Of a DNA stretch of 64,000 nucleotides, positions 32,577 through 45,407 are shown one piece after another. Each line of letters opens with the position of its first letter. Position 1 is the first letter of the stretch. This DNA is from Dehalococcoidia bacterium (lineage in GTDB: Bacteria; Chloroflexota; Dehalococcoidia; Lucifugimonadales; UBA3495): NCBI GenBank assembly GCA_965262595.1, contig OZ253548.1:1371740-1435739 (forward strand), read 5' to 3'. The notes beneath the pieces are model-generated. The model was not told the origin of the DNA, ran no database searches, and saw nothing but the letters and a program-made list of their open reading frames with translations. Both the position numbers and the translations under genes were made by a program.

Positions 32577-33944
32577 ATGGCCGACCGCAACTTTGCCAAC
32601 CGGACGCTGTACCACGGCGACAACATGGACTTCCTGCGAGGAATGAACTCCGGTACAGTCAATCTTATCGCTACCGACCCGCCCTTCAACAAGTCCCGTG
32701 ATTTTCACGCTACCCCCGACAGCCTGGCTAAAGGGGCCAGATTTGTTGACCGCTGGAGTTGGGATAGAGATGTTCACGAAGAATGGGTGGACGCTATCAA
32801 GGATGATTGGCCCGGTGTCTGGCAGGCCATAGAGAATGGCCGGGTTAATCATAGTCCAGGCATGGCTGCTTTTCTCTGTTGGTTAGGGATTCGTTTAATC
32901 GAAATGCGTCGTGTTTTGGCCGATGATGGGAGTATCTATCTGCATATCGACCATACTGCCCACGCCTACGCCAAAGCCTTGATGGACGCTATCTTTGGGC
33001 AACGCAACTTTAGAAATGAGCTTGTTTGGTGCTATAAATCAGGGGGTGCGAGTCCTTCACGATACTTTAGTCGGAAGCACGACACAATTTTGTGGTACAC
33101 CATAGGAAGGCAGTATTGTTTTAATCCCCAGCAAGAAAAGTCCTATAATCGAGATTTCAAGCCTTACCATTTTGCTGGTGTCAAGGAATATAAAGACAAT
33201 AAAGGCTGGTACACACTCGTTGGGATGAAGGACTATTGGGAAATTGACATGGTTGGGCGGACGAGTGGAGAACGTACCGGCTTCCCTACGCAAAAACCAT
33301 TGGCCCTCTATGAGCGCATCATCCACGCCAGTAGCAACCCCGGCGATGTAGTCCTTGACCCATTCTGCGGGTGTGCCACCACGCCCATTGCGGCTGAACG
33401 CTTGGGCCGTCAATGGGTAGGTATGGATATTTGGGACGGGGCGGTTGACGCTGTGCGAGCAAGAATAGCCGACAACCGCCAGCTATTGACCGAATCCAAT
33501 CCAACGATTACCTACGCCACCACCCCGCTGGAGCGCACCGATAATCCCGACCCCCACACTCCAACCGTACCTGATTTACAGTTGCGGATACGTCGGATAA
33601 AGGAACGCTGGGAGAGGCTTTCCCACGCCGAGATGCGGGATATACTCGCCACCGCTCAAGCAAGCGGGGATAGCGTAGTTTGCGCCGGTTGCGGTATCGC
33701 CCTTCCCGTCCGTTATATGCAACTAGACCACCGGGACCCACGAAAGGACGGCGGGGAGAACCTAATCACCAACCGGATTCTGCTGTGCGCTCCCTGCAAC
33801 AACTTAAAGCGGGCTGAACTGACACTTTCTGGATTAGTACGGGATAACAAGCGGGCCGGGTATATGGACAATGAGGCTATGGCAGACCTGGCCCAGACCA
33901 AAGCGAGGGACGCCGCCAACCGATGTAGGGCTGAAATGAGATAA
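32577..33944 (+). CDS. N4/N6 DNA methyltransferase (beta-class, DPPF) fused to a C-terminal HNH nuclease domain
   Basis: Motif IV is LIATDPPFNKSRDF and motif I is VLDPFCGCATTPIAAERLG. The C-terminus reads CAGCG...LDHRDPRKDGGENLITNRILLCAPCNNLKRAE. The start is ATG 32577 or GTG 32571. Confidence 0.8.
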   Translation: MADRNFANRTLYHGDNMDFLRGMNSGTVNLIATDPPFNKSRDFHATPDSLAKGARFVDRWSWDRDVHEEWVDAIKDDWPGVWQAIENGRVNHSPGMAAFLCWLGIRLIEMRRVLADDGSIYLHIDHTAHAYAKALMDAIFGQRNFRNELVWCYKSGGASPSRYFSRKHDTILWYTIGRQYCFNPQQEKSYNRDFKPYHFAGVKEYKDNKGWYTLVGMKDYWEIDMVGRTSGERTGFPTQKPLALYERIIHASSNPGDVVLDPFCGCATTPIAAERLGRQWVGMDIWDGAVDAVRARIADNRQLLTESNPTITYATTPLERTDNPDPHTPTVPDLQLRIRRIKERWERLSHAEMRDILATAQASGDSVVCAGCGIALPVRYMQLDHRDPRKDGGENLITNRILLCAPCNNLKRAELTLSGLVRDNKRAGYMDNEAMADLAQTKARDAANRCRAEMR

Positions 33945-33956
33945 GGAGAGTCAAGT

Positions 33957-34091
33957 ATGGCAACGAACCGGAACAAAAGGGAACCGGAAAAGCCGGTGGA
34001 GACACCAAAGCCGCCACGTACCTGCACCTGCGGCATTGAAATTGAGAAAGCTAAAAGGTTGTGTGCCGAGGCCGACTGCCCCTATCGGTAG
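33957..34091 (+). CDS. 44-aa Cys-containing small ORF (below the ORF-track cutoff)
   Basis: AAGGAGAG lies 6 nt before the ATG. The product is MATNRNKREPEKPVETPKPPRTCTCGIEIEKAKRLCAEADCPYR, with four Cys. Confidence 0.3.
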   Translation: MATNRNKREPEKPVETPKPPRTCTCGIEIEKAKRLCAEADCPYR

Positions 34092-34117
34092 TCTGCCCCT
34101 GCAATGGGAGGAAGATT

Positions 34118-35164
34118 ATGGCCGAATACACCGATACCATTACCACCAAGATACTCTGCCCCGATTGCGACTCCCCCGACGTGGTGAAGCACGGCTTCCA
34201 GAACGGCCAGCAACGCTATCGCTGTAAGCCCTGTGGCAACCGCTTTCGTTACAACGGCAAACCACAGGGCCGGCAACTCCAAAGCGAACATACCGGGGCG
34301 GCGGTCAGAATGTTCTACATGGGTATGTCCTATAAGCAGATTGCCGAAACTATGGAGAAACAGCACGACATCCCCGAACCTTCCAAGCACACCGTCTATG
34401 CCTGGGTCAAGCGATACACCGATGAGGCCGTTACCGAAAGCCGCAATCCCCAATACCGGGCGCATACCGGCGATGTTTGGGTTGCTGACGAAATGCAGGT
34501 CGTGGTCGGCGGCGAGAAGTATTGGCATTGGAACGTGATGGATGAGGATACCCGCTACGTCCTCGCCTCTTATCTGACCAAAGAACGGACTACCAGGGCG
34601 GGTACGGAGGTAATGCGCCGGGCCAAGTTAGCCGCCGCCAATGAACCGAAGGAAATCAAGACGGATAGGCTGAGTTCCTATGACGGGGCCATAGACCGCG
34701 TATTCCCCCTGGCCAAGCACGTCAAAGCGGACGGGATACAGGCGGAAGTCAACAACAATATGTCGAAACGGCTACAGGGTAGCTACCGCTCCCGTACCAA
34801 GACCCTGCGGGGATTGGACAGCCGGGAGACGGGGCAAAGGTATCTGGACGGCTGGACGCTGACCTACAACAATTTCCGAGACCACGAGGGCGCGGACGGG
34901 GAACCGCCGGCGGTCAAGGCCGGAGTGAAACTGCCCTATGACGAATGGGCGGACGTGGTACGGGGCAATGACGGCTCGCCGGACCAAATGCACGAATACC
35001 GGAAGGTTGCCGCTCTGGAACGGCCCACCTACCGGATTGTGCCGCCGTCAGGAATGGGGGAACCGGCTTTCCGGCGGCGGGCTACACCGAGAAAGCCGAG
35101 GGGGATGGGCGGGTCTAGCGGCACTCGCAAAATCGTGGTGACGGGCAAGGCAAGTGTCGGCTGA
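34118..35164 (+). CDS. DDE transposase, IS6-like, with N-terminal Zn-finger
   Basis: GGGAGGAAG precedes ATG 34118. The Zn finger is CPDCDSPDVVKHG...YRCKPCGNRF. The DDE-type core reads WVADEMQVVVGGEKYWHWNVMDEDTRYVL...IKTDRLSSYDGAI. Confidence 0.8.
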   Translation: MAEYTDTITTKILCPDCDSPDVVKHGFQNGQQRYRCKPCGNRFRYNGKPQGRQLQSEHTGAAVRMFYMGMSYKQIAETMEKQHDIPEPSKHTVYAWVKRYTDEAVTESRNPQYRAHTGDVWVADEMQVVVGGEKYWHWNVMDEDTRYVLASYLTKERTTRAGTEVMRRAKLAAANEPKEIKTDRLSSYDGAIDRVFPLAKHVKADGIQAEVNNNMSKRLQGSYRSRTKTLRGLDSRETGQRYLDGWTLTYNNFRDHEGADGEPPAVKAGVKLPYDEWADVVRGNDGSPDQMHEYRKVAALERPTYRIVPPSGMGEPAFRRRATPRKPRGMGGSSGTRKIVVTGKASVG

Positions 35165-37992: not shown

Positions 37993-38661
37993 CTAAATCG
38001 CCGCCCTTATTTCCTCAACCAAGGAATTGATGCGGTTGGCTTGAGCTATATTGAATATGCCGGTAATCTCATCGCTCCGATAGCCCACCAAGTCGGTAGG
38101 CACCGCGTTGGATACGATGTAAAAGGGAGATGTCTTGTTTTGGCGTCGGAACTTTAGGGCGTTGGCTTGGGCTTTCTTCCAGGTGTCCGAGCGTTCCAGC
38201 CCGGGCCTATAAATGGTGGTCACTGTATCGTCCGGGTTCTGCACGTAACGGGGCGACCCTTTGGTTTCAATGGCAACTCGGGGCGTAACCTCCAGATCAT
38301 GAGTGTTGGTATTGCCCGGGGTGGCTACAGCCGGCAGTTCAAACCTGGTGGACAAGAGATACCGCACTGCGCTTTCAAAGACCTTTCCAACTATTGACGA
38401 CCGGGCTTGAAAAGTAGCTACCTCAAACACCCTGCCGGAATCGCATAAAGGGCATTTCAAAGGCATATTGCCAAATGCCGCGGTAGTAGTTCCACCACCA
38501 ATACAAGCCACGCAGGCCCAAGCCGGATAGCAGGCAACTGCGTCAATAGCCTGTTGAAAGCAGCCATTGAAGTAATTTTGCAGCCGCCCGTTGGTTAATT
38601 GCCGGTTACTGATAGGCGGATAATTAGCCCGGACGATTTCATCATACGGAATAGCCGGCAC
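37993..38661 (-). CDS. type II restriction endonuclease candidate (Cys-cluster N-terminus + PD-(D/E)xK core)
   Basis: The core reads HDLEV...VAIETKG (D...ExK). Cys clusters are CYPAWACVAC...CPLC. It overlaps the 3' end of the adjacent methylase by 20 nt. Confidence 0.55.
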   Translation of the reverse strand: MPAIPYDEIVRANYPPISNRQLTNGRLQNYFNGCFQQAIDAVACYPAWACVACIGGGTTTAAFGNMPLKCPLCDSGRVFEVATFQARSSIVGKVFESAVRYLLSTRFELPAVATPGNTNTHDLEVTPRVAIETKGSPRYVQNPDDTVTTIYRPGLERSDTWKKAQANALKFRRQNKTSPFYIVSNAVPTDLVGYRSDEITGIFNIAQANRINSLVEEIRAAI

Positions 38662-39628
38662 TGCTCACCTCCGCGATAATCCGACCATCGGGATTGACCT
38701 GGACAAAGAGTTGGGGCGATGCCGCCAAACGGCGGTAGGCCAGGGCCTGGTATTCCGGGGAAATCTCATAGCCCACAAACCGGCGGCCGGTGTTCAGCGC
38801 GGCCAGAGCCGTGGTGCCGCTGCCCATAAAGGGGTCCAGCACCACCTCGTCCGAGTAGGTGTAAAGCTCGATGCAGCGGCGGGGGAGCTCCTCGGGAAAG
38901 GGGGCGGGATGCCCGATGCGCCGGGCCGATGTTGCGGGGAATTGCCAGATGCTACGGGTACACGCCAGGAAATCGTCCCGGCTGATGGTGGCTTGGCGGT
39001 TGGGGAGTTTGGGCCGCCGCCAGGTGTCCTTGCAGAGAACGAGGATGTATTCGTGGACATCCCGCAGCGTGGGGTTGGTGGGGGACTTCCAACTGCCCCA
39101 GGCGGTGGAGGATGCGGCGCTGGCCGCCTTGTCCCAGATGATTTCCCCCCGCATCAAGAAGCCCAGTTCTTGCAAGTCCTCAATGATGTAGCGGTGCAGG
39201 GGCAGGTAGGGACGGCGGCCCAGGTTAGCGATGTTGAAGCAGATCCGACCGCCCGGCACCAAGACCCGGTGGACCTCCCCCATCACGGTGCGGAGGAAGT
39301 CCCGGTACTCGGCCAGGGTCAGGTCTTCGTCGTATTCCTTCCCCACGTTATAGGGCGGAGAGGTCACCATCAGGTGGACGCTGCAATCGGGCAGGGCGTC
39401 CATCTTCTCTGCCGAAACGGGCAGGATGGTATTGGCGACACCGTAGGGTAGGGGATTTTCTACATACGCAACCCGGCGTTCCGCCGGCTGGTCAGCGTAA
39501 AGCCGGCCGGCGTAGAAGCGCGAGGAGTCATGCCCATGCCGCCCCGCCGCCCCAAAGGCGGAAGTTTGGGTTTTCCACCCCAAATTGTCGGGGGGGGGGG
39601 GGGGTAGATTGTTATTATCGGAATTCAA
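38642..39628 (-). CDS. N4-cytosine/N6-adenine DNA methyltransferase (beta-class, SPPY)
   Basis: Motif IV is LMVTSPPYNVGKEY and motif I is VLDPFMGSGTTALAA. It has a TTG start, and the N-terminus contains PPPPP encoded by the G15/C15 tract. Confidence 0.85.
   Translation of the reverse strand: MNSDNNNLPPPPPDNLGWKTQTSAFGAAGRHGHDSSRFYAGRLYADQPAERRVAYVENPLPYGVANTILPVSAEKMDALPDCSVHLMVTSPPYNVGKEYDEDLTLAEYRDFLRTVMGEVHRVLVPGGRICFNIANLGRRPYLPLHRYIIEDLQELGFLMRGEIIWDKAASAASSTAWGSWKSPTNPTLRDVHEYILVLCKDTWRRPKLPNRQATISRDDFLACTRSIWQFPATSARRIGHPAPFPEELPRRCIELYTYSDEVVLDPFMGSGTTALAALNTGRRFVGYEISPEYQALAYRRLAASPQLFVQVNPDGRIIAEVSSAGYSV
39590..39604. repeat. homopolymer G15 (C15 on the coding strand) inside the methylase 5' end
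   Basis: Counted directly in the sequence. It encodes Pro x5 at codons 9-13. Confidence 0.9.
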
Positions 39629-39694
39629 AACGCGCGCGATTATCGCGCCGGTATGTGGTTAGCGCAAGGGGACTTTGGCTATTAATTGCAGGCG

Positions 39695-40018
39695 CTATAC
39701 CCCGCCTCTTCCGCCACGGCCACCGCCGCCACGGTGCTTATGGCTATCGGACCAGTAAAAGTCTTTGGACTCCATATATCGCTCGGTCAACATTTCGGAA
39801 GGGGTTTTGCCGGACTCGGCAGGAGATGGTTTGTAGCTACTTTCCAGCACAATCTGACGGAAAACCGTTTGGGCTTGTTTCAAAGTGCGATAAGACCCCA
39901 AAATCTCACCGCTGCGTATAACGTAAAACTTGCCGTCATCAGGGACCACTTCCGTAAGCCGTTCAATGGAGAGGTCAAGGTCGGGGATGGATTGACGATA
40001 AAAATCTCCGTTAGACAT
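39695..40018 (-). CDS. hypothetical small protein with C-terminal RGG-rich tail
   Basis: GGGAGG precedes ATG 40018. The longer track ORF would run through the pdhB terminator hairpin. Confidence 0.45.
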   Translation of the reverse strand: MSNGDFYRQSIPDLDLSIERLTEVVPDDGKFYVIRSGEILGSYRTLKQAQTVFRQIVLESSYKPSPAESGKTPSEMLTERYMESKDFYWSDSHKHRGGGGRGGRGGV

Positions 40019-40085
40019 ACAACCTCCCGCGCCATTATACCGCGAAATCCGGGTGGCGGAGAGTCCGTATCGCTGACACAAAACT

Positions 40086-40110
40086 AAGGGTGGGTTTCAA
40101 ACCCACCCTT
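40086..40110 (-). terminator. intrinsic terminator after the E1 beta gene
   Basis: The hairpin is AAGGGTGGGTTT-c-AAACCCACCCTT, followed on the minus strand by AGUUUUGUGU. Confidence 0.65.
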
Positions 40111-40142
40111 GTAAATCAAACAAAAGTACCCCGCTTGACCGT

Positions 40143-41186
40143 TTAGACTCGCGCCAACAAACCCTGAACCGTTTTGATTACGCGGGCGGAGTTGGGCAGG
40201 TAGGCGTCCTCCAGGGGGCGGCTGTAGGGAACCGGCGTGTGGGGCGCCGTAACCCGGGAAGGGGGAGCGTCCAGATAGTCAAAGGCCTCCTCGGCCACCC
40301 GGGCGCAAATGTCCGACGCCAAGCTGCATACCGGCGTATCCTCGTCCACCACCACCAGCCGGTGCGTGCGCCGTACCGAGTCTATAATCAGGTCGTAGTC
40401 AATGGGCGAAACGCTGAGCAAGTCCACCACCTCGGCGTTTACACCCTCCTTCGCCAGCTCCGTCGCCGCTTCGGTGCAGACCCAGGTCATACGGGAAATT
40501 CCCACCAGGGTAATATCCGTTCCCTGGCGAACGATGCGCGCCTTGCCCAAGGGAATCACGTAGGAATCCTCGGGCACCGGGCCAATATCACCGTACAGCC
40601 CCTTGTGTTCAAAGTAAACCACCGGGTCATCGTCGCGGATGGCGGCGGTGAGCAGGCCCTTGGCGGTATAGGGGTCGGAAGGAACCACGCCTTTCAGGCC
40701 CGGAATATGGCTGAAAATGGAATAAAAGGACTCGGAATGCTGGGCGGCGCTGCCAAAACCGGCGCCGATGCGCGTGAGCATGGTGAAAGGCACCTTGACC
40801 TGACCACCGAACATATAGCGCATCTTGGCGGCGTTGTTCAGCAGTTGGTCCATACAGACGCCGATAAAGTCAACGAACATCAACTCGGCGACGGCCCGCA
40901 TCCCGGTGGATGAGGCTCCGATGGCAGTGCCGATGAAGGCGGCTTCGGATAGGGGGGTGTCCAACACGCGCTGATTGCCGAACTGCTGGATCAGGCCCAC
41001 CGTGGTACGGAAGGGGCCGCCCCAGGCATCGACGATGCCCAGGTGTTCCCGGCCGGCGCCTCCGGCGATTTCCTCGCCCATAATGATGACCGTCTCGTCC
41101 CGCTCCATCTCCTGGCGCAGGGCCTCGTTAATGGCTTCACGGTATCGCAGCTCCCGGGTAGTGTTGGGAGTCATGGCGGTGGTCAT
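40143..41186 (-). CDS. 2-oxoacid (pyruvate/acetoin) dehydrogenase E1 component beta subunit
   Basis: 347 aa. The N-terminus has transketolase-like pyrimidine-binding motifs (EEIAGGAG..., RVLDTPLSEAAF). GAGAGGAG is the RBS. Confidence 0.9.
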   Translation of the reverse strand: MTTAMTPNTTRELRYREAINEALRQEMERDETVIIMGEEIAGGAGREHLGIVDAWGGPFRTTVGLIQQFGNQRVLDTPLSEAAFIGTAIGASSTGMRAVAELMFVDFIGVCMDQLLNNAAKMRYMFGGQVKVPFTMLTRIGAGFGSAAQHSESFYSIFSHIPGLKGVVPSDPYTAKGLLTAAIRDDDPVVYFEHKGLYGDIGPVPEDSYVIPLGKARIVRQGTDITLVGISRMTWVCTEAATELAKEGVNAEVVDLLSVSPIDYDLIIDSVRRTHRLVVVDEDTPVCSLASDICARVAEEAFDYLDAPPSRVTAPHTPVPYSRPLEDAYLPNSARVIKTVQGLLARV

Positions 41187-41271
41187 GGTCTCACTCCTCT
41201 CTTTCGCATTGACGCCAATCTCTGGATCGGGGGTATTAGTACGAAACCCTTGTAATGCTGAGTAATCGAAA

Positions 41272-41295
41272 TGCGATATTCTACCATTTAAGGTC
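41272..41295. repeat. direct repeat copy 1 flanking the R-M cassette (TGCGATATTCTACCATTTAAGGTC)
   Basis: It is 21/24 identical to 43245-43268 in the same orientation. Confidence 0.85.
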
Positions 41296-41321
41296 TTTTT
41301 GGATTGAGTCGTTGTAGCAAT

Positions 41322-42275
41322 TTATCGGTTGACTTGACTGACATGAGGGCTGTCCACTGCCGTGACATAACGGGCTTCATCTTCCAAGAGCATCAATTGT
41401 TCCATTTCCCCAGTCGGTTCTTTGGCAAAGTTGCCGGGTTTGTAATTAGTAACGATTGCTTCCAGCATGGCTTTTCTGTTTCTCTCGTAGGCGCCAACGT
41501 GATAAAAGTGCTCTTGGGTCAAAATAGAAAATTCGCTCCAAAGCTCCTGGATGAACCGGTTCTCCCGGTGCTGGTTACTATGCCATGTGGACAACATGAA
41601 CCTTGCACGGGTGTTCTTCAAGCTAGTATGCAGCAGATTTTCCTTGTGCGCATCCCAAGTTTGATAATAGTCAACATGTCGGTCAACGTAGGGTGGGTCG
41701 CAATACACGAAGTCGCGGTCTGTAGCGTCCTGAATTGTTTTCTGGAAGTCCTGGCAGACAAAGCTCCAGTCGAGCACCTGTGTGGCTGCTCTAAAGCGCT
41801 CCACCTGATTGACTATTTTCGTAATGTAAGCCGGTGCGAATCGCTTCGGTTTGTGCCCATACGGAACATTGAAGTGTCCTTTACTGTTGAACCGGACGAG
41901 TCCGTTAAAGCAAGATCGGTTAAGGAAGAGGAAATCCAGTGGGTAGCCAAATGAATTGAAACGGTCCCTGACACGGTAGTAGTGGGCCTTTCCTTCATTT
42001 GCAAGCAAGACCCCTTCACGTTCGAGAAAAATCCTTGTTTTCTTCCCGTCTATTTCCCCGTCCTTGATGGCCTGATAAAACCGAATCATGTGGGGGTTGG
42101 TATCTGCCAGTATGGCGTTTTGGGGTAGAACATTTAGAACAACTACCCCGGAACCCAGGAACGGTTCGATCCATGTTCCTTCAGTATCCCGGTCGAGGCA
42201 CCGCAATATAGTCGGGACCAGCTTGGTCTTGATGCCCTGGCACTTTAGCGGAGGTACTAGTATTCGCAAATTCAT
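41322..42275 (-). CDS. Dam-family (D12 class, alpha) N6-adenine DNA methyltransferase, M.EcoRV-like
   Basis: Motif I is EPFLGSGVVVLN and motif IV is VYCDPPYVDRHVDY. It overlaps the upstream nuclease gene by 4 nt. Confidence 0.85.
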   Translation of the reverse strand: MNLRILVPPLKCQGIKTKLVPTILRCLDRDTEGTWIEPFLGSGVVVLNVLPQNAILADTNPHMIRFYQAIKDGEIDGKKTRIFLEREGVLLANEGKAHYYRVRDRFNSFGYPLDFLFLNRSCFNGLVRFNSKGHFNVPYGHKPKRFAPAYITKIVNQVERFRAATQVLDWSFVCQDFQKTIQDATDRDFVYCDPPYVDRHVDYYQTWDAHKENLLHTSLKNTRARFMLSTWHSNQHRENRFIQELWSEFSILTQEHFYHVGAYERNRKAMLEAIVTNYKPGNFAKEPTGEMEQLMLLEDEARYVTAVDSPHVSQVNR

Positions 42276-43201
42276 CCCCCGCCACGACGTCGCCGGGACT
42301 TGGGGACAACTTTCGTCTCGTCCCCGCCACGGTATTTAACGAAATCAATCATATTACGGATTGTACGTGTCTCACCCGAATTTTCTCTTATAGTAATGCT
42401 ATCATAATTCATCCAATAGTCATCAAACCAATTTTCTCCGAGTAGAGAGAACATACCCTTTCCCAAAACTATGTCATCAATCTTGGTGACGCTACCAATA
42501 TTTGCTGTGTTGCCACTGCCTCTCCTGTCACTGGCGATTTTCCATTTTTCCTGTACAAAGAACTGAAAATTCCGAATTACTGAAACAATGGACTTAAGGT
42601 CATCCAATTGATTTGTCGTCGCTTCGTTTACCGACTCGTCAACGCTACGTGAATATATTATTCCTAAACAAAAGTGACTCAAATAGTCTTTATAAGGGAA
42701 CTGAATATTCTTGGTACTGTTGCGATTCTTGAAGTACTCGCCGTGTGACCCGAGGGTAAAGCCATTGCAAAAGTCCGGAGTGCCTTCGACTCGATAGGTC
42801 GTCTTGAAGTCAACGGCAAACTTTACCTCTGGATTTGTCATCTTTACAAAAGAGAGGTCCGGGTAATAGTTTTGGTGTTCAGGGAGAACCAATCCAAAGC
42901 CTGTCTGCTCGGCAAATAGCATGAGCTTCGGGAAAAGGTGTATTTCAAGTATCTTGGACACGACTTTAGTGTCGGATGAGATAGCATATATGTTGCGATA
43001 AATGTCTATAAAACCCTTGATCGCCCACTGTCCGTCTTCTGTCTGTACCACGTCACCAAGGTCAGCGACGAAGCTTGTCAGAGCATCTTGGAATGACCTT
43101 TTCTCTTCTTCCTTATCCAATCTAATCTCCAGTTCGTAGCAAGTAGTCGCGAAAACACCCCAAAGATCAATTGCACTCGCACGAACGGACCAGAAAACCA
43201 C
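42272..43201 (-). CDS. type II restriction endonuclease, EcoRV-like
   Basis: Blocks match EcoRV as I remember it: SSDTKVVSKILE, HQNYYPDLSF...KFAVDFKTTY (the PD...D-x-K core), FTLGSHGEYF, QEKWKIASDRRGSGNTANIGS and FDDYWMNY. Confidence 0.75.
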   Translation of the reverse strand: MVFWSVRASAIDLWGVFATTCYELEIRLDKEEEKRSFQDALTSFVADLGDVVQTEDGQWAIKGFIDIYRNIYAISSDTKVVSKILEIHLFPKLMLFAEQTGFGLVLPEHQNYYPDLSFVKMTNPEVKFAVDFKTTYRVEGTPDFCNGFTLGSHGEYFKNRNSTKNIQFPYKDYLSHFCLGIIYSRSVDESVNEATTNQLDDLKSIVSVIRNFQFFVQEKWKIASDRRGSGNTANIGSVTKIDDIVLGKGMFSLLGENWFDDYWMNYDSITIRENSGETRTIRNMIDFVKYRGGDETKVVPKSRRRRGGG

Positions 43202-43244
43202 AGATTAACCGGTGGTCCAAAACCTCAGTATGGGTGATTGACAC

Positions 43245-43268
43245 TGCGGAATTCCACCATTTAAGGTC
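43245..43268. repeat. direct repeat copy 2 flanking the R-M cassette (TGCGGAATTCCACCATTTAAGGTC)
   Basis: It is 21/24 identical to 41272-41295; the last 13 nt are identical. Confidence 0.85.
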
Positions 43269-43322
43269 GGTTTACATTAAATCGCTGCTCAAATCCCCAA
43301 TTTTTTCAACGGTTTTGGACTA

Positions 43323-44330
43323 TTAAACTTCCAAGTTTATACCCCGGTGCATCATATCTATCGGATAATCAACGTAAACATCTTCGTATATTTCCCCCGG
43401 CAGGGGCAAGGGGCTTTCGTCGGCGAAGCGAATAGCTTCCTCCATCAATTCCTCGGCTTCCAGGTCGAGATAGTCAAGCTCTTCGGTAGATATCAGGCCG
43501 CCCGGCACCACCTTTTCCCGGAACAATTTCAGCGGGTCGCGGCCCCGCCAATAATCCTGCTCCTCCTGAGTGCGATAGCTCAGGGGGTTGTCAAAGACGG
43601 TGTGCCCGTAGTAACGATAAGTACGGCACTCCAAAAGGGAGGGACCTTCCCCACTTCTGGCCCGGAGCACCGCTTGCTCGGCAGCCTCCAGAACGTCGAA
43701 AACATCCATTCCGTCCACGTGGATGCCCGGCATATCGTAGCCGGGGGCTCGGTCAACCACTCGGGCGGTAGAGAGGGCATATTCCACCGGAGTAGATTCG
43801 GCATAGCCATTATTTTCGCAGCAGAAAATAACCGGCAGCTTCCAGACCGAGGCCAGATTCATACACTCATGGAGGACGCCCTGGTTGGCCGCGCCGTCGC
43901 CAAAGAAAGCCACCGCTACCCGGCCCAGGTTGCGCAGCTTGGAAGTAAGGGCGGCGCCGACGGCCAGAGGCACACTGGCGGCTACCACACCATTGGTTCC
44001 AAGCATTCCCTTGCTCATGTCTGCGATGTGCATCGAGCCGCCTTTACCCTTGTTGGGGCCGGTGGTTCGACCGAAAAGCTCGGCCATCATCAGCTTGGGA
44101 TCAACGCCCTTGGCGATGCAGTGGCCGTGGCCGCGGTGGGTGCTGCCAATGTAGTCGTCCACGGTGAGGTTGGCGCAGACACCGGTGGGCACCGCTTCCT
44201 GCCCGGCGGAGGAGTGCACCGACCCGGACATCCCCCGCTGCCCGGTTTCGGGAATGCCTCGTTCCTCGAAGTGTCGAATGGTCGTCATCGTCTGGTACAA
44301 GCGAAGCAACATATCTCGGTCAAGTTCCAT
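43323..44330 (-). CDS. 2-oxoacid dehydrogenase E1 component alpha subunit (TPP-dependent)
   Basis: The TPP motif is GDGAANQG...NN. The likely start is ATG 44330 after GGGGGAAGAG. Confidence 0.85.
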   Translation of the reverse strand: MELDRDMLLRLYQTMTTIRHFEERGIPETGQRGMSGSVHSSAGQEAVPTGVCANLTVDDYIGSTHRGHGHCIAKGVDPKLMMAELFGRTTGPNKGKGGSMHIADMSKGMLGTNGVVAASVPLAVGAALTSKLRNLGRVAVAFFGDGAANQGVLHECMNLASVWKLPVIFCCENNGYAESTPVEYALSTARVVDRAPGYDMPGIHVDGMDVFDVLEAAEQAVLRARSGEGPSLLECRTYRYYGHTVFDNPLSYRTQEEQDYWRGRDPLKLFREKVVPGGLISTEELDYLDLEAEELMEEAIRFADESPLPLPGEIYEDVYVDYPIDMMHRGINLEV

Positions 44331-44504
44331 CTCTTCCCCCAGCGGCGCTTGGCTGCACGGATAGCGCAATTTTTCCAATGGTAGCACGAGGGTAAGGGAT
44401 GTCAATAGCCGTAGGAATGAAGCGATAACGGTGGATGGAACCTGCGGTGCACCCTGGGTCAGCGATTCAGGCCGGCTCAGTTCGCCGGGTGTGAGCGTCT
44501 CGGC

Positions 44505-45407
44505 TTAAGCCGGTTCATCCCCAAAGACTACCCGCACCGGCTCGCCTAGGCCCAATTCCAGGACTCGGCCGGCGTCATCGTCGCGGACGGCAATTTCCAG
44601 GTAACCGTTGCTGCCGATTAACGCTACCGGGGCTGGGCCGAGTCCGGCCTCGGAGCCATGAAAAGTACGGCTCAACCCGGAGATTCGGTGACGGCCAATT
44701 TCAACGGCAACCGGCTTGTCGGGCAGCGAGTCAGTCGGGATGTTAGTGATCAAGTTTCCGAACCGGTCGGTATAGATAACTTCTCCCCGGACGGTTCCCT
44801 TGACGGCGTTGCCCTGGAAGAATGGCTCCGGCGCAGGCTGATAGACCAGGTCGGCTACCGGCGTACCCAAAGTTTGCGCCGGAACACCCAGGGCCAGGTA
44901 GGCTGCGGACGGCGCAAACACGTCCCGGCCATGAAAGGTATTGCTTACCGGATGCAACCAGTAGCGGGGATTGGTCAACTCATAAGCTGCCAGTCCCGGC
45001 GGCACGGGAATACGGACCGGCTGCCCCGGCGCTGCGGGTTTTTCCGGCGCAAAAGCAGCCGCGGGCGGTACCGCAGGCGCAGCCAGGTATCCCTTAATTA
45101 CGTGGCTGAGCAGGCCGTTATCCGGCGCCAGGAAACGGACGGTCGGGGTCACCAATAACAAGGCGCGACGCTCCGTACCCACTCCGGGATCGATTACCGC
45201 GACATGAATGGTGTTCGAAGGGAAGTAGGAGTAGTTGGTTCCCAGGACAAAAGAGGCTTGACGCAGGTTCTGCGGTTGAATCTCGTGGGTTAGGTCAATG
45301 ATGACGGCTTGGGGGTTGATGTTAAGGATAACTCCCTTCATTACCCCCACAAAAGCGTCGGCCAGCCCGAAATCGGTAGTCAGGACAATGGGCGGAGTAG
45401 CGGTCAT
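44505..45407 (-). CDS. SAM hydroxide adenosyltransferase / chlorinase-fluorinase family (DUF62)
   Basis: The N-terminus IVLTTDFGLADAFVGVMKGVI is typical of the family. Confidence 0.75.
   Translation of the reverse strand: MTATPPIVLTTDFGLADAFVGVMKGVILNINPQAVIIDLTHEIQPQNLRQASFVLGTNYSYFPSNTIHVAVIDPGVGTERRALLLVTPTVRFLAPDNGLLSHVIKGYLAAPAVPPAAAFAPEKPAAPGQPVRIPVPPGLAAYELTNPRYWLHPVSNTFHGRDVFAPSAAYLALGVPAQTLGTPVADLVYQPAPEPFFQGNAVKGTVRGEVIYTDRFGNLITNIPTDSLPDKPVAVEIGRHRISGLSRTFHGSEAGLGPAPVALIGSNGYLEIAVRDDDAGRVLELGLGEPVRVVFGDEPA

What the first reader, a model, noticed from the sequence alone, without database searches (positions are those of the whole stretch)
41272..43268. EcoRV-like R-M cassette inserted between the E1 alpha and E1 beta genes, bounded by 24-nt direct repeats
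E1 alpha (43323..44330) and E1 beta (40143..41186) of a 2-oxoacid dehydrogenase are normally adjacent. Here they are separated by about 2.1 kb that is visibly AT-richer than the flanks. This segment encodes, in the same orientation, a nuclease and a methylase. The nuclease has block-wise similarity to R.EcoRV, including the PD...D-x-K core YPDLSF...AVDFKTTY and the GSGNTxNIGS block. The methylase is Dam-family, with FLGSG then DPPY, as M.EcoRV is. The segment is bracketed by TGCGATATTCTACCATTTAAGGTC (41272-41295) and TGCGGAATTCCACCATTTAAGGTC (43245-43268). These are direct repeats, 21/24 identical, with the last 13 nt identical. That is the footprint expected if a mobile R-M unit inserted into the alpha-beta spacer with a long target duplication. 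Expression of the R-M, and of E1 beta, is now likely coupled to the operon promoter.
Basis: partly seen in the sequence, partly recalled or inferred. Interest (0 to 1): 0.65.

Follow-up and report, generated by a model that had tools for sequence, protein, structure and literature searches.

The report
Old EcoRV-type restriction cassette inside operon
An intact EcoRV-type restriction-modification gene pair sits between the two E1 dehydrogenase subunit genes of a sponge-associated SAR202 bacterium, but it is an old, vertically inherited resident of a gap where strains carry different restriction genes, and its 24-nt flanking repeats are not the footprint of its insertion.

Summary
The gene at 42272-43120(-) is an EcoRV-family nuclease and 41322-42275(-) is an M.EcoRV-like Dam-class methylase. 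Both lie between E1 alpha and E1 beta, at GC 0.44-0.49 against 0.59-0.62. They are bracketed by a real direct repeat (24-nt core, about 57 nt in all).

Four other SAR202 species carry the orthologous alpha-R-M-beta arrangement without the repeat. Silent-site divergence of R and M equals that of the flanking genes, and dN/dS is 0.06-0.16. The cassette is therefore ancient, vertically inherited and under purifying selection.

Empty-site relatives (46-50 nt spacers) hold no copy of the repeat. It is a lineage-specific secondary duplication, not dispersed, without a promoter or RNA-structure signal, and drifting independently in a 96%-identical strain.

The alpha-beta gap is a polymorphic restriction slot. 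Contigs of the same species (flanks 98-99% identical) carry instead a 1011-aa PglX-like methylase protein or a GmrSD type IV nuclease. The GmrSD allele does show a true long target duplication (96 nt of the alpha 3' end).

A promoter-like site, a terminator and metatranscriptome contigs fit co-transcription with the operon. This is a new member of known kinds.

The parts
44378..44405 (-). Sigma-70-like promoter candidate (TTGACA, 16 nt, TACCAT with a TG extension) 48 nt upstream of the E1 alpha ATG
   Evidence: Consensus scan, 10/12 matches, the best site in 39600-44700. Prediction only.
43323..44330 (-). E1 alpha subunit (335 aa) of a PDH-type 2-oxoacid dehydrogenase
   Evidence: PF00676 at E 7e-91. 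TIGR03182 at E 2.5e-105, below the equivalog cut-off. Same 335-aa gene call in L001 and L124.
43231..43287 (.). Direct repeat copy A (core 43245-43268), in the alpha-proximal half of the 202-nt spacer upstream of R
   Evidence: Absent from the orthologous spacers of L083-L087. Only the R-M unitig matches it at 80% or more in three metagenome contig sets.
43123..43226 (-). R-proximal part of the upstream spacer, conserved with the orthologous locus L083. Includes the RBS GGAG before the TTG start.
   Evidence: Local alignment of the WIN and L083 upstream spacers and the multiple alignment.
42272..43120 (-). EcoRV-family type IIP restriction endonuclease, 282 aa, TTG start
   Evidence: PF09233 at E 2e-113. 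PDB EcoRV at E 5e-41. PADLOC REase_II at E 5e-43. Residues equivalent to E45, D74, D90, K92, Q69 and N70 are conserved, and the R-loop reads GSGNT(A)N. dN/dS is 0.06-0.12.
41322..42275 (-). Dam/D12-class N6-adenine DNA methyltransferase, an M.EcoRV orthologue, 317 aa. Its ATG overlaps the R stop codon (ATGA).
   Evidence: PF02086 at E 3e-48. TIGR00571 dam subfamily, 200 bits against a cut-off of 115. 55% identity to M.EcoRV over 277 aa without gaps, E 6e-121. dN/dS is 0.12-0.16.
41259..41314 (.). Direct repeat copy B (core 41272-41295), starting 8 nt after the M stop codon
   Evidence: In the 96%-identical strain it carries its own changes (41287 T>C, 41300 T>G), while copy A has 43251 A>G.
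41194..41256 (-). Beta-proximal part of the downstream spacer, conserved with L083. Contains the beta RBS (GAGAGGAG).
   Evidence: Local alignment of the WIN and L083 downstream spacers, score 55.
40143..41186 (-). E1 beta subunit (347 aa)
   Evidence: PF02779 and PF02780. NF006667, 337 bits against a cut-off of 321.
40086..40110 (-). Intrinsic-terminator-like hairpin (11-bp stem followed by a T run), 33 nt after the beta stop codon
   Evidence: The only terminator-like site on the - strand between the alpha start and here is a weak 6-bp stem inside M.

Best explanation
The segment is an intact type IIP restriction-modification cassette of the EcoRV family. The nuclease is followed by a Dam-class methylase on the same strand. 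Their stop and start codons overlap (ATGA), there is no controller (C) gene, and the nuclease has a weak TTG start.

The cassette occupies the gap between the E1 alpha and E1 beta genes of a sponge-associated SAR202 (Dehalococcoidia) bacterium. It most likely methylates and cuts GATATC, and is transcribed as part of the alpha-R-M-beta unit (both inferred).

It is not a recent arrival. It entered this gap before the split of at least five species-level lineages. It has been inherited vertically under purifying selection and has kept its low GC content.

The alpha-beta gap is a restriction slot with turnover. One sister group has lost the cassette. Within the window's own species, alternative alleles carry a 1011-aa PglX-like methylase-domain protein or a GmrSD type IV nuclease. 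All alleles break at the alpha stop codon and 4-20 nt before the beta ATG. The likely exchange mechanism is homologous recombination through the conserved alpha and beta genes (inferred).

The 24-nt (about 57-nt) direct repeats are a secondary duplication of spacer sequence specific to the window's lineage. They have no detectable function and are not a target-site duplication.
For: Identity:
- establish the two families.
- The tandem R-to-M order is shared with 52%-identical plasmid homologues.

Organism:
- All close relatives are SAR202 / Dehalococcoidia MAGs.

Ancient residence:
- The closest R homologues (81-86% aa) all lie between alpha and beta in L083, L084/L085/L086 and L087-L089.
- Identity at 4-fold sites is the same for R and M as for gatB, alpha and beta in every pair. 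Example WIN-L083: 61/64/70/66/69%. Example L084-L085: 97/92/95/95/96%.
- dS of R and M is 0.6-1.8, at least that of alpha and beta. dN/dS is 0.06-0.16.
- In the NJ tree of gatB+alpha+beta, EcoRV carriers lie on both sides of the clade's basal split, and the empty L003/L004/L041 are sister to L087.

Polymorphic slot:
- L001 has flanks 98.8% identical and a 3064-nt replacement with a 1011-aa ORF.
- L124 has an alpha protein identical to the window's, flanks 98.2-98.6% identical, and a 560-aa GmrSD protein.
- L002 is a 12-mer mosaic of the EcoRV and GmrSD alleles, i.e. collapsed haplotypes.
- In runs X1 and X3 the R-M unitig (depth 35 and 82) plus an alternative unitig (19 and 66) add up to the flank depth (51-60 and 150-160). 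The alternative unitig has L124-type junctions.
- Other cargos occupy the same gap in other species.

Repeat not a target duplication:
-.

Expression:
- Promoter-like site upstream of alpha, terminator after beta, no convincing terminator between.
- Metatranscriptome contigs from a 96%-identical strain run from 92 nt inside beta to 300 nt inside alpha in 3 of 4 runs.
Against: - GATATC is not avoided in the window (8 observed against 9-14 expected), while most hexamer palindromes are strongly avoided. There is therefore no genomic signature of the predicted specificity, though 64 kb gives little power.
- Specificity, activity and methylation are untested.
- The RNA evidence consists of unstranded contigs from another strain, and DNA carry-over cannot be excluded.
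- The R tree is not perfectly congruent with the host tree. WIN is closer to L083 and to L084 than those two are to each other. R-M dS exceeds that of alpha/beta in L083-L084. Some allelic exchange among lineages is therefore possible.
- The origin of the 57-nt duplication is not explained mechanistically.
- That the 1011-aa protein belongs to a restriction system rests on weak matches only.
Confidence: 0.75

Rival explanations
1. One reading: a mobile R-M unit recently inserted into the alpha-beta spacer and duplicated about 24 nt of target, giving the two repeats.
For: The repeats are real and bracket the cassette. The cassette is AT-rich. Insertion with long target duplication is a documented route for R-M genes (PMC2853133), and it demonstrably occurred at this very gap for the GmrSD allele.
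Against: Empty sites in L003, L004 and L041 and in more distant relatives contain nothing like the repeat. Orthologous alpha-R-M-beta loci in four species lack it. The silent-site divergence of R and M equals that of the flanks. Under the criteria of Furuta et al., the repeat must align with the empty genome, and it does not.
Confidence: 0.04
2. The repeats are the surviving remnant of a duplication made at the ancient insertion, eroded in all other lineages and kept only here.
For: The downstream spacer of L083 shows weak similarity to the left part of the repeat unit (score 20, within the shuffle range). It also shows similarity to its own alpha 3' region (z 6.0). This hints that an old duplication may once have flanked the cassette.
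Against: A 77-88% identical repeat cannot have survived while silent sites elsewhere are near saturation (dS 0.6-1.4), unless it is conserved. Yet the two copies drift independently in the 96% strain. The repeat lies outside the spacer segments conserved with L083. The L083 similarity is not reproduced in WIN, L084, L085 or L087.
Confidence: 0.08
3. The repeat is a duplicated regulatory element, for example a promoter or operator placed before R-M and again before beta to restore beta expression.
For: In gene orientation, copy B reads TGGTAGAAT, which resembles an extended -10 element, 75 nt upstream of the beta ATG (my reading of the sequence).
Against: Copy A reads TGGTGGAAT, which lacks the conserved A at position 2. 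There is no acceptable -35 element, and the promoter scan reports neither site. There is no RNA structure (z -0.3 and +0.4). The copies diverge independently. Sister species express the same arrangement without the repeat.
Confidence: 0.1
4. The cassette spreads horizontally among SAR202 species by recombination through alpha and beta, rather than being inherited vertically.
For: The three alleles share the same breakpoints at the gene ends. SNP density rises towards the slot: 3.1% in alpha against about 0.9% upstream. The R tree is partly incongruent with the host tree.
Against: No pair of lineages has R-M markedly more similar than its flanking genes. This is what recent transfer would produce.
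Confidence: 0.12

Closest known systems
EcoRV R-M system of E. coli plasmid pLG13 (R.EcoRV, M.EcoRV, C.EcoRV)
   Same: Nuclease of the same Pfam family, with the catalytic E/D/D/K residues, the Q-loop QN and the R-loop GSGNTxN conserved. Methylase 55% identical along its whole length.
   Different: In pLG13 the methylase is divergently transcribed and an HTH controller gene precedes R. Here R and M are tandem with an ATGA overlap, there is no C gene, and R has a TTG start and is about 37 aa longer. The location is chromosomal, inside a metabolic operon. R identity is only 37%.
Tandem EcoRV-family / Dam-family pairs annotated on plasmids (Antarctobacter heliothermus pSMS3-1, Rhodothermus marinus)
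   Same: Same R-to-M order and about 282-aa nuclease. R is 52% and M 49% identical.
   Different: Those pairs are plasmid-borne. In pSMS3-1 the pair is flanked by IS6 copies. Here there are no IS or integrase genes next to the cassette.
Allelic substitution of R-M systems at a fixed locus (Furuta, Abe and Kobayashi 2010, PMC2853133; E. coli hsd locus cited there)
   Same: Same-species genomes with near-identical flanks and unrelated restriction genes between them.
   Different: The locus is the intercistronic gap of a two-subunit enzyme operon. The alleles are a type II R-M, a type IV GmrSD nuclease and a PglX-like methylase protein.
R-M insertion with long target duplication (same paper)
   Same: The GmrSD allele L124 has a 96-nt duplicate of the alpha 3' end on the far side of the insert.
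   Different: The window's EcoRV cassette fails the defining test, because its repeat is absent from empty genomes. In L124 the insert is a lone type IV nuclease, not an R plus M pair.

Membership tests
EcoRV-family type IIP restriction endonuclease (PF09233) | Full-length match to the family profile above the curated cut-off | tested here: met
   378 bits against a cut-off of 25, profile positions 2-244 of 244. PDB EcoRV chains at E 5e-41.
EcoRV-family type IIP restriction endonuclease (PF09233) | Catalytic PD...(D/E)XK residues (EcoRV E45, D74, D90, K92) and recognition R-loop GSGNTTN | tested here: met
   In the pairwise alignment, E59, D88, D104 and K106 align with them. The R-loop reads GSGNTAN, with only the T187 equivalent changed to A. 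Residue roles are from my knowledge of the EcoRV structures.
EcoRV-family type IIP restriction endonuclease (PF09233) | Cleaves GAT^ATC | not testable with these tools
   Inferred only. GATATC is not depleted in the window.
Dam/D12-class (alpha group) m6A DNA methyltransferase, M.EcoRV type | Profile match above the cut-off, with motif I (FxGxG) preceding motif IV (DPPY) | tested here: met
   PF02086 at 165 bits. TIGR00571 at 200 bits against a cut-off of 115. FLGSG at residues 39-43 and DPPY at residues 193-196. 55% identity to M.EcoRV.
C-protein-controlled EcoRV operon architecture | HTH controller gene upstream of R, with M divergent | tested here: not met
   pLG13 has it. The window has no ORF with an HTH hit in the 202-nt spacer, and R and M are tandem.
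R-M insertion with long target duplication (Furuta et al. 2010) | R and M both inside an insert shorter than 20 kb | tested here: met
   2136-nt insert holding R and M.
R-M insertion with long target duplication (Furuta et al. 2010) | Flanking direct repeat longer than 30 bp | tested here: inconclusive
   The core is 24 nt (21/24). It extends to 43 nt at 77% and about 57 nt with a gap.
R-M insertion with long target duplication (Furuta et al. 2010) | The repeated sequence aligns with a single copy in the genome that lacks the insert | tested here: not met
   There is no copy in the empty sites of L003, L004 and L041, nor in the same-species alleles L001 and L124.
Allelic substitution of restriction systems at one locus | Same-species genomes with aligned flanks, no homology in the R-M region, and a replacement longer than 1 kb | tested here: met
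   WIN against L001: flanks 98.8-98.9% identical, 3064-nt replacement. WIN against L124: flanks 98.2-98.6% identical, 1918-nt replacement.
Allelic substitution of restriction systems at one locus | The replacing genes are themselves restriction systems | tested here: inconclusive
   L124 matches GmrSD_N plus GmrSD_C in precomputed Pfam hits. The L001 1011-aa protein has only motif-level and weak matches to MTases: PADLOC mad2 at 7e-7 and PDB PglX at E 0.01.

The most novel reading that the evidence does not exclude
The E1 alpha-beta intercistronic gap of sponge-associated SAR202 is a long-lived defence slot embedded in an operon. Unrelated restriction cassettes (EcoRV-type R-M, GmrSD, a PglX-like enzyme, other methylases, a small Asp-protease-like gene pair) replace one another there by recombination through the conserved subunit genes. 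They borrow the housekeeping promoter in place of their own control gene. They persist as a balanced polymorphism within species under phage pressure.
Probability: 0.35. Interest if true: 0.55.

Novelty: new member of a known kind. Interest (0 to 1): 0.42.

Why it matters
The case is a useful caution. An AT-rich, repeat-flanked R-M cassette inside an operon looks like a fresh insertion, yet here it has co-diverged with its host through several speciation events without its GC content converging on the host's.

It also documents, in an uncultured sponge symbiont, three alternative restriction genes at one intra-operon position in a single species, co-existing in the same samples.

This gives a concrete prediction. 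Strains should differ in their methylome, with m6A at GATATC only in carriers of the EcoRV allele. That difference could be used for strain-resolved binning of long-read metagenomes.

It also explains a locally garbled public assembly (L002) as collapsed haplotypes.

Tried and rejected
- **Metagenome scan for the repeat core.** GACCTTAAATGGTRGAAT gave 29 hits, all with unrelated flanks, about the number expected by chance.
- **RNA folding.** Neither repeat copy nor either spacer folds better than shuffles.
- **Promoter scan.** No sigma-70-type site lies at the repeats.
- **GATATC avoidance.** None was found.
- **Flanking direct repeats at ten other occupied alpha-beta gaps.** None bracket the inserts. 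Only L124, found later, has one.
- **Alpha 3'-end haplotype travelling with the cargo.** WIN and L001 differ by 10 SNPs in the last 40 nt of alpha. The idea was rejected because the 96% strain combines the L001-type end with the EcoRV cassette.
- **Decayed alpha-3' duplicate downstream of the EcoRV cassette.** Significant only in L083 (z 6.0), not in WIN, L084, L085 or L087. Left as a weak lead.
- **L002 as an independent allele.** It is a mosaic consensus of two haplotypes.
- **Deletion between the repeats.** No joint skipping 1973 nt appears among those listed for the contig sets (one search left three joints unlisted). Contigs would also miss rare variants.
- **PDB and NCBIfam searches of the 222-aa ORF next to the second methylase.** No hits.
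Full report
**Observation**

On the - strand the window holds E1 alpha (43323-44330), a 2136-nt gap, and E1 beta (40143-41186). The gap contains two ORFs in the same orientation as the E1 genes.

- The first ORF matches Pfam Endonuc-EcoRV over the whole profile (E 2e-113). It matches EcoRV crystal-structure chains at E 5e-41.
- The second ORF is a D12/Dam-class methylase (E 3e-48; TIGR00571 above its cut-off).
- GC falls from about 0.60 to 0.41-0.50 across the gap. GC3 is 0.48 (R) and 0.57 (M), against 0.70 and 0.78 for alpha and beta.
They extend to 43 nt at 77% and to about 57 nt with one gap. The local alignment score is 37, against a shuffle mean of 15.7 and maximum of 30.
- There are only two copies in the 64 kb, and none are expected by chance.

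The only correction concerns the nuclease start. It is almost certainly TTG 43120, preceded by GGAG, giving 282 aa. This is the length of its homologues. In L087 the upstream frame is closed by a stop codon (my reading of the sequence).

**What the genes are**

- Against the prototype on E. coli plasmid pLG13, the methylase is 55% identical over 277 residues without a gap (E 6e-121).
- The nuclease is 37% identical to R.EcoRV (E 2e-46).
- In that alignment the EcoRV catalytic residues E45, D74, D90 and K92 are all conserved. So are the Q-loop Q69 and N70 and the recognition loop G182-N188, except that T187 is changed to A. The residue roles come from my knowledge of the EcoRV structures.
- GATATC specificity is therefore a reasonable inference, but it is untested.
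- The architecture differs from the prototype. pLG13 has a divergent methylase and a controller gene before R. Here R and M are tandem with an ATGA stop/start overlap and no controller gene.
- The R start codon is TTG in all five related lineages, whereas more distant homologues use GTG or ATG.
- The same tandem order occurs in 52%-identical plasmid homologues.

**Whose genome it is, and what relatives show**

A scan of species-representative genomes with E1 beta returned SAR202 / Dehalococcoidia MAGs. The gatB-secG-SAM_HAT-alpha-beta order is conserved among them. Many of the related assemblies are from sponge metagenomes.

Most relatives have alpha and beta adjacent. The nearest species with an empty site (L003, L004, L041; beta 93% identical) have 46-50 nt spacers with no trace of the repeat.

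The closest homologues of the nuclease (81-86% aa) all sit between alpha and beta in four further SAR202 species: L083, L084/L085/L086 and L087-L089. Their spacers lack the repeat.

More distant homologues (about 70%) sit after hisB, or between prpC and prpD, in other genomes. The R-to-M pair therefore behaves as a compact unit that can settle in or next to metabolic operons.

**Age of the insertion**

- Identity at four-fold degenerate sites is the same for R and M as for gatB, alpha and beta in every pair of lineages. For WIN-L083 the values are 61/64/70/66/69%. For the close pair L084-L085 they are 97/92/95/95/96%.
- Nei-Gojobori dS for R and M (0.6-1.8) is at least that of alpha and beta. 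dN/dS is 0.06-0.16.
- In a neighbour-joining tree of gatB+alpha+beta, EcoRV carriers lie on both sides of the basal split of a genus-level clade. The empty L003/L004/L041 group is sister to the carrier L087.
- The simplest history is one old insertion, vertical inheritance under purifying selection, one loss, and replacement in some strains.
- Low GC is kept in all lineages: R 0.44-0.52 against alpha/beta 0.59-0.67. The compositional contrast is therefore not evidence of recency.

**A polymorphic slot**

Contigs of the same species carry other genes in the same gap.

- **L001.** Flanks are 98.8-98.9% identical and beta is identical at the protein level. It has a 3064-nt replacement encoding a 1011-aa protein with DYACGSGG and NPPF motifs. 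It has weak matches to MmeI/type I/MADS methylases and to PglX/BrxX.
- **L124.** It comes from the same sample as L001. Its alpha protein is identical to the window's and its flanks are 98.2-98.6% identical. It has a 560-aa GmrSD type IV nuclease.
- **Breakpoints.** All three alleles diverge at the alpha stop codon and 4-20 nt before the beta ATG.
- **L002.** At first it looked like an error-ridden copy of the window allele. It is in fact a fine mosaic of 12-mers from the EcoRV and GmrSD alleles: 220 EcoRV-only and 359 GmrSD-only. It is a collapsed two-haplotype consensus, so both alleles co-occur in that sample.
- **Runs X1 and X3.** The R-M unitig (depth 35 and 82) plus an alternative unitig (19 and 66) add up to the flank depth of 51-60 and 150-160. 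The alternative branch has the L124-type SNPs in the alpha end and diverges at 41190 as L124 does. It is 42 nt shorter than L124 predicts, so its identity is probable rather than proven.

Other species carry other cargos in the same gap:

- homologues of the 1011-aa gene (L009, L011);
- a small two-gene pair with a weak retropepsin-like match (L015, L019, L021);
- in a more distant E1 operon group, a 413-aa methylase with or without a second methylase and a nuclease (L048, L055, L060);
- a DUF3800 protein (L053).

The neighbouring SAM_HAT|alpha junction and the region after beta are also variable. They carry methylases, a methylase-Mrr fusion, transposases and an AAA_15/AAA_21 ATPase gene.

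SNP density between WIN and L001 rises towards the slot: 3.1% in alpha against about 0.9% further upstream.

**The repeat**

- It lies just outside the spacer segments that are conserved with the orthologous locus L083.
- It is absent from all other alleles and from all relatives.
- It is not a dispersed element. Only the R-M unitig matches it at 80% or more in three metagenome contig sets. A metagenome scan gave only chance hits.
- It shows no RNA structure and no promoter call.
- In a 96%-identical strain both copies are present but have changed independently: 41287 T>C and 41300 T>G in copy B, and 43251 A>G in copy A.
- Under the criteria of Furuta et al. (PMC2853133), a long target duplication must align with the single copy in the empty genome. 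This repeat does not. The WIN/L001/L124 comparison falls in their 'substitution' class.
- I conclude that it is a lineage-specific secondary duplication of spacer sequence, probably neutral. How it arose (gene conversion between the two spacers, or collapse of a tandem duplication of the unit) is not resolved.
In L124 the last 96 nt of alpha are duplicated immediately after the GmrSD stop codon. The copy is 80% identical (blastn E 6e-18; local score 95 against a shuffle maximum of 24). It is followed by a 46-nt spacer like those of empty sites.

**Expression**

The best promoter-like site in 39600-44700 lies 48 nt upstream of the alpha ATG. A strong terminator hairpin follows beta. Between them the - strand shows only a weak terminator-like stem inside M.

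Metatranscriptome contigs from a 96%-identical strain cover 41094-43613/43626 in three runs, and 41094-43130 in a fourth. That span runs from inside beta through M, R and both spacers into alpha.

These contigs are unstranded, come from another strain, and could contain DNA. Co-transcription is therefore supported but not shown. The weak TTG start of R and its translational coupling to M would keep nuclease levels low relative to methylase in the absence of a controller protein (inference).

**Verdict**

The R-M identification and its position are correct. The 'mobile unit with a 24-nt target duplication' reading is not.

The feature is a new member of known kinds: an EcoRV-family R-M, and allelic substitution of restriction systems at a fixed locus. 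Two aspects are less usual. The locus is the intercistronic gap of a two-subunit enzyme operon, and the cassette has stayed there through several speciations.

Interest is moderate (0.42).

Noticed in passing
window 37993-40018 (-): A second variable slot lies directly after E1 beta. It holds a 107-aa ORF (39695-40018), an N4/N6 methylase (38642-39628; PF01555, PADLOC MTase_II at E 2e-122) and a 222-aa ORF that overlaps the methylase by 20 nt (37993-38661). The 222-aa ORF has no Pfam, NCBIfam, PADLOC or PDB match and is presumably the cognate nuclease. The slot is the same in L001, L124 and L083. It is absent in L084 and L085, where dprA follows beta, and is replaced by an AAA_15/AAA_21 gene in L087.
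   Followed up: partly
window 32577-35161 (+): A 455-aa methylase-HNH fusion (32577-33941) lies next to an IS240-type DDE transposase (34118-35161). This makes three DNA methylase genes within 11 kb.
   Followed up: partly
whole window: Most hexamer palindromes are strongly depleted. Examples: GTATAC 0 observed against 4-6 expected, CCTAGG 1 against 16 by a first-order model (0.5 by the higher-order model), CAGCTG 1 against 14-15, GGGCCC 6 against 32-63. GATATC is not depleted (8 against 9-14).
   Followed up: no
L124:5009-6926 (same species as the window): A GmrSD type IV nuclease allele occupies the alpha-beta gap. It is flanked by a 96-nt duplicate of the alpha 3' end, a clear case of insertion with long target duplication.
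   Followed up: yes
L002:7671-9400: This public assembly is locally garbled. The sequence is a 12-mer mosaic of the EcoRV and GmrSD alleles, and the alpha gene is frameshifted. This is a collapsed-haplotype consensus, not a real allele.
   Followed up: yes
L001:6945-9980; L009:2123-5158; L011:2508-5522: A 1011-aa (1004 aa in L011) protein fills the alpha-beta gap and starts 16-19 nt after the alpha stop codon. It has methylase motifs I and IV (DYACGSGG, NPPF), only weak family matches, and a distant hit to BREX PglX. It is 75-86% conserved across three lineages, with dN/dS 0.11-0.15.
   Followed up: partly
L015:5316-5959; L019:5322-5962; L021:5304-5986: A two-gene pair of about 90 aa and about 125 aa occupies the alpha-beta gap in three other species. 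The larger protein has a DTGF motif and a weak retropepsin-like match. It may be a toxin-antitoxin-like module.
   Followed up: no
window 43215-43224 and 43311-43320: A perfect 10-bp inverted repeat (GTCCAAAACC / GGTTTTGGAC) brackets repeat copy A in the upstream spacer. Folding of the spacer is not better than shuffles (z -0.9).
   Followed up: partly
window 43323-43365: The last 40 nt of alpha differ at 10 positions between the window and L001, including His to Ser. The 96% strain with the EcoRV cassette has the L001-type end, so this haplotype is not linked to the cargo.
   Followed up: yes
L083:6877-6972: The downstream spacer of the orthologous EcoRV locus in L083 resembles its own alpha 3' region (z 6.0 against shuffles). 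It may be an eroded target duplication from the ancient insertion. This is not reproduced in the other four lineages.
   Followed up: partly
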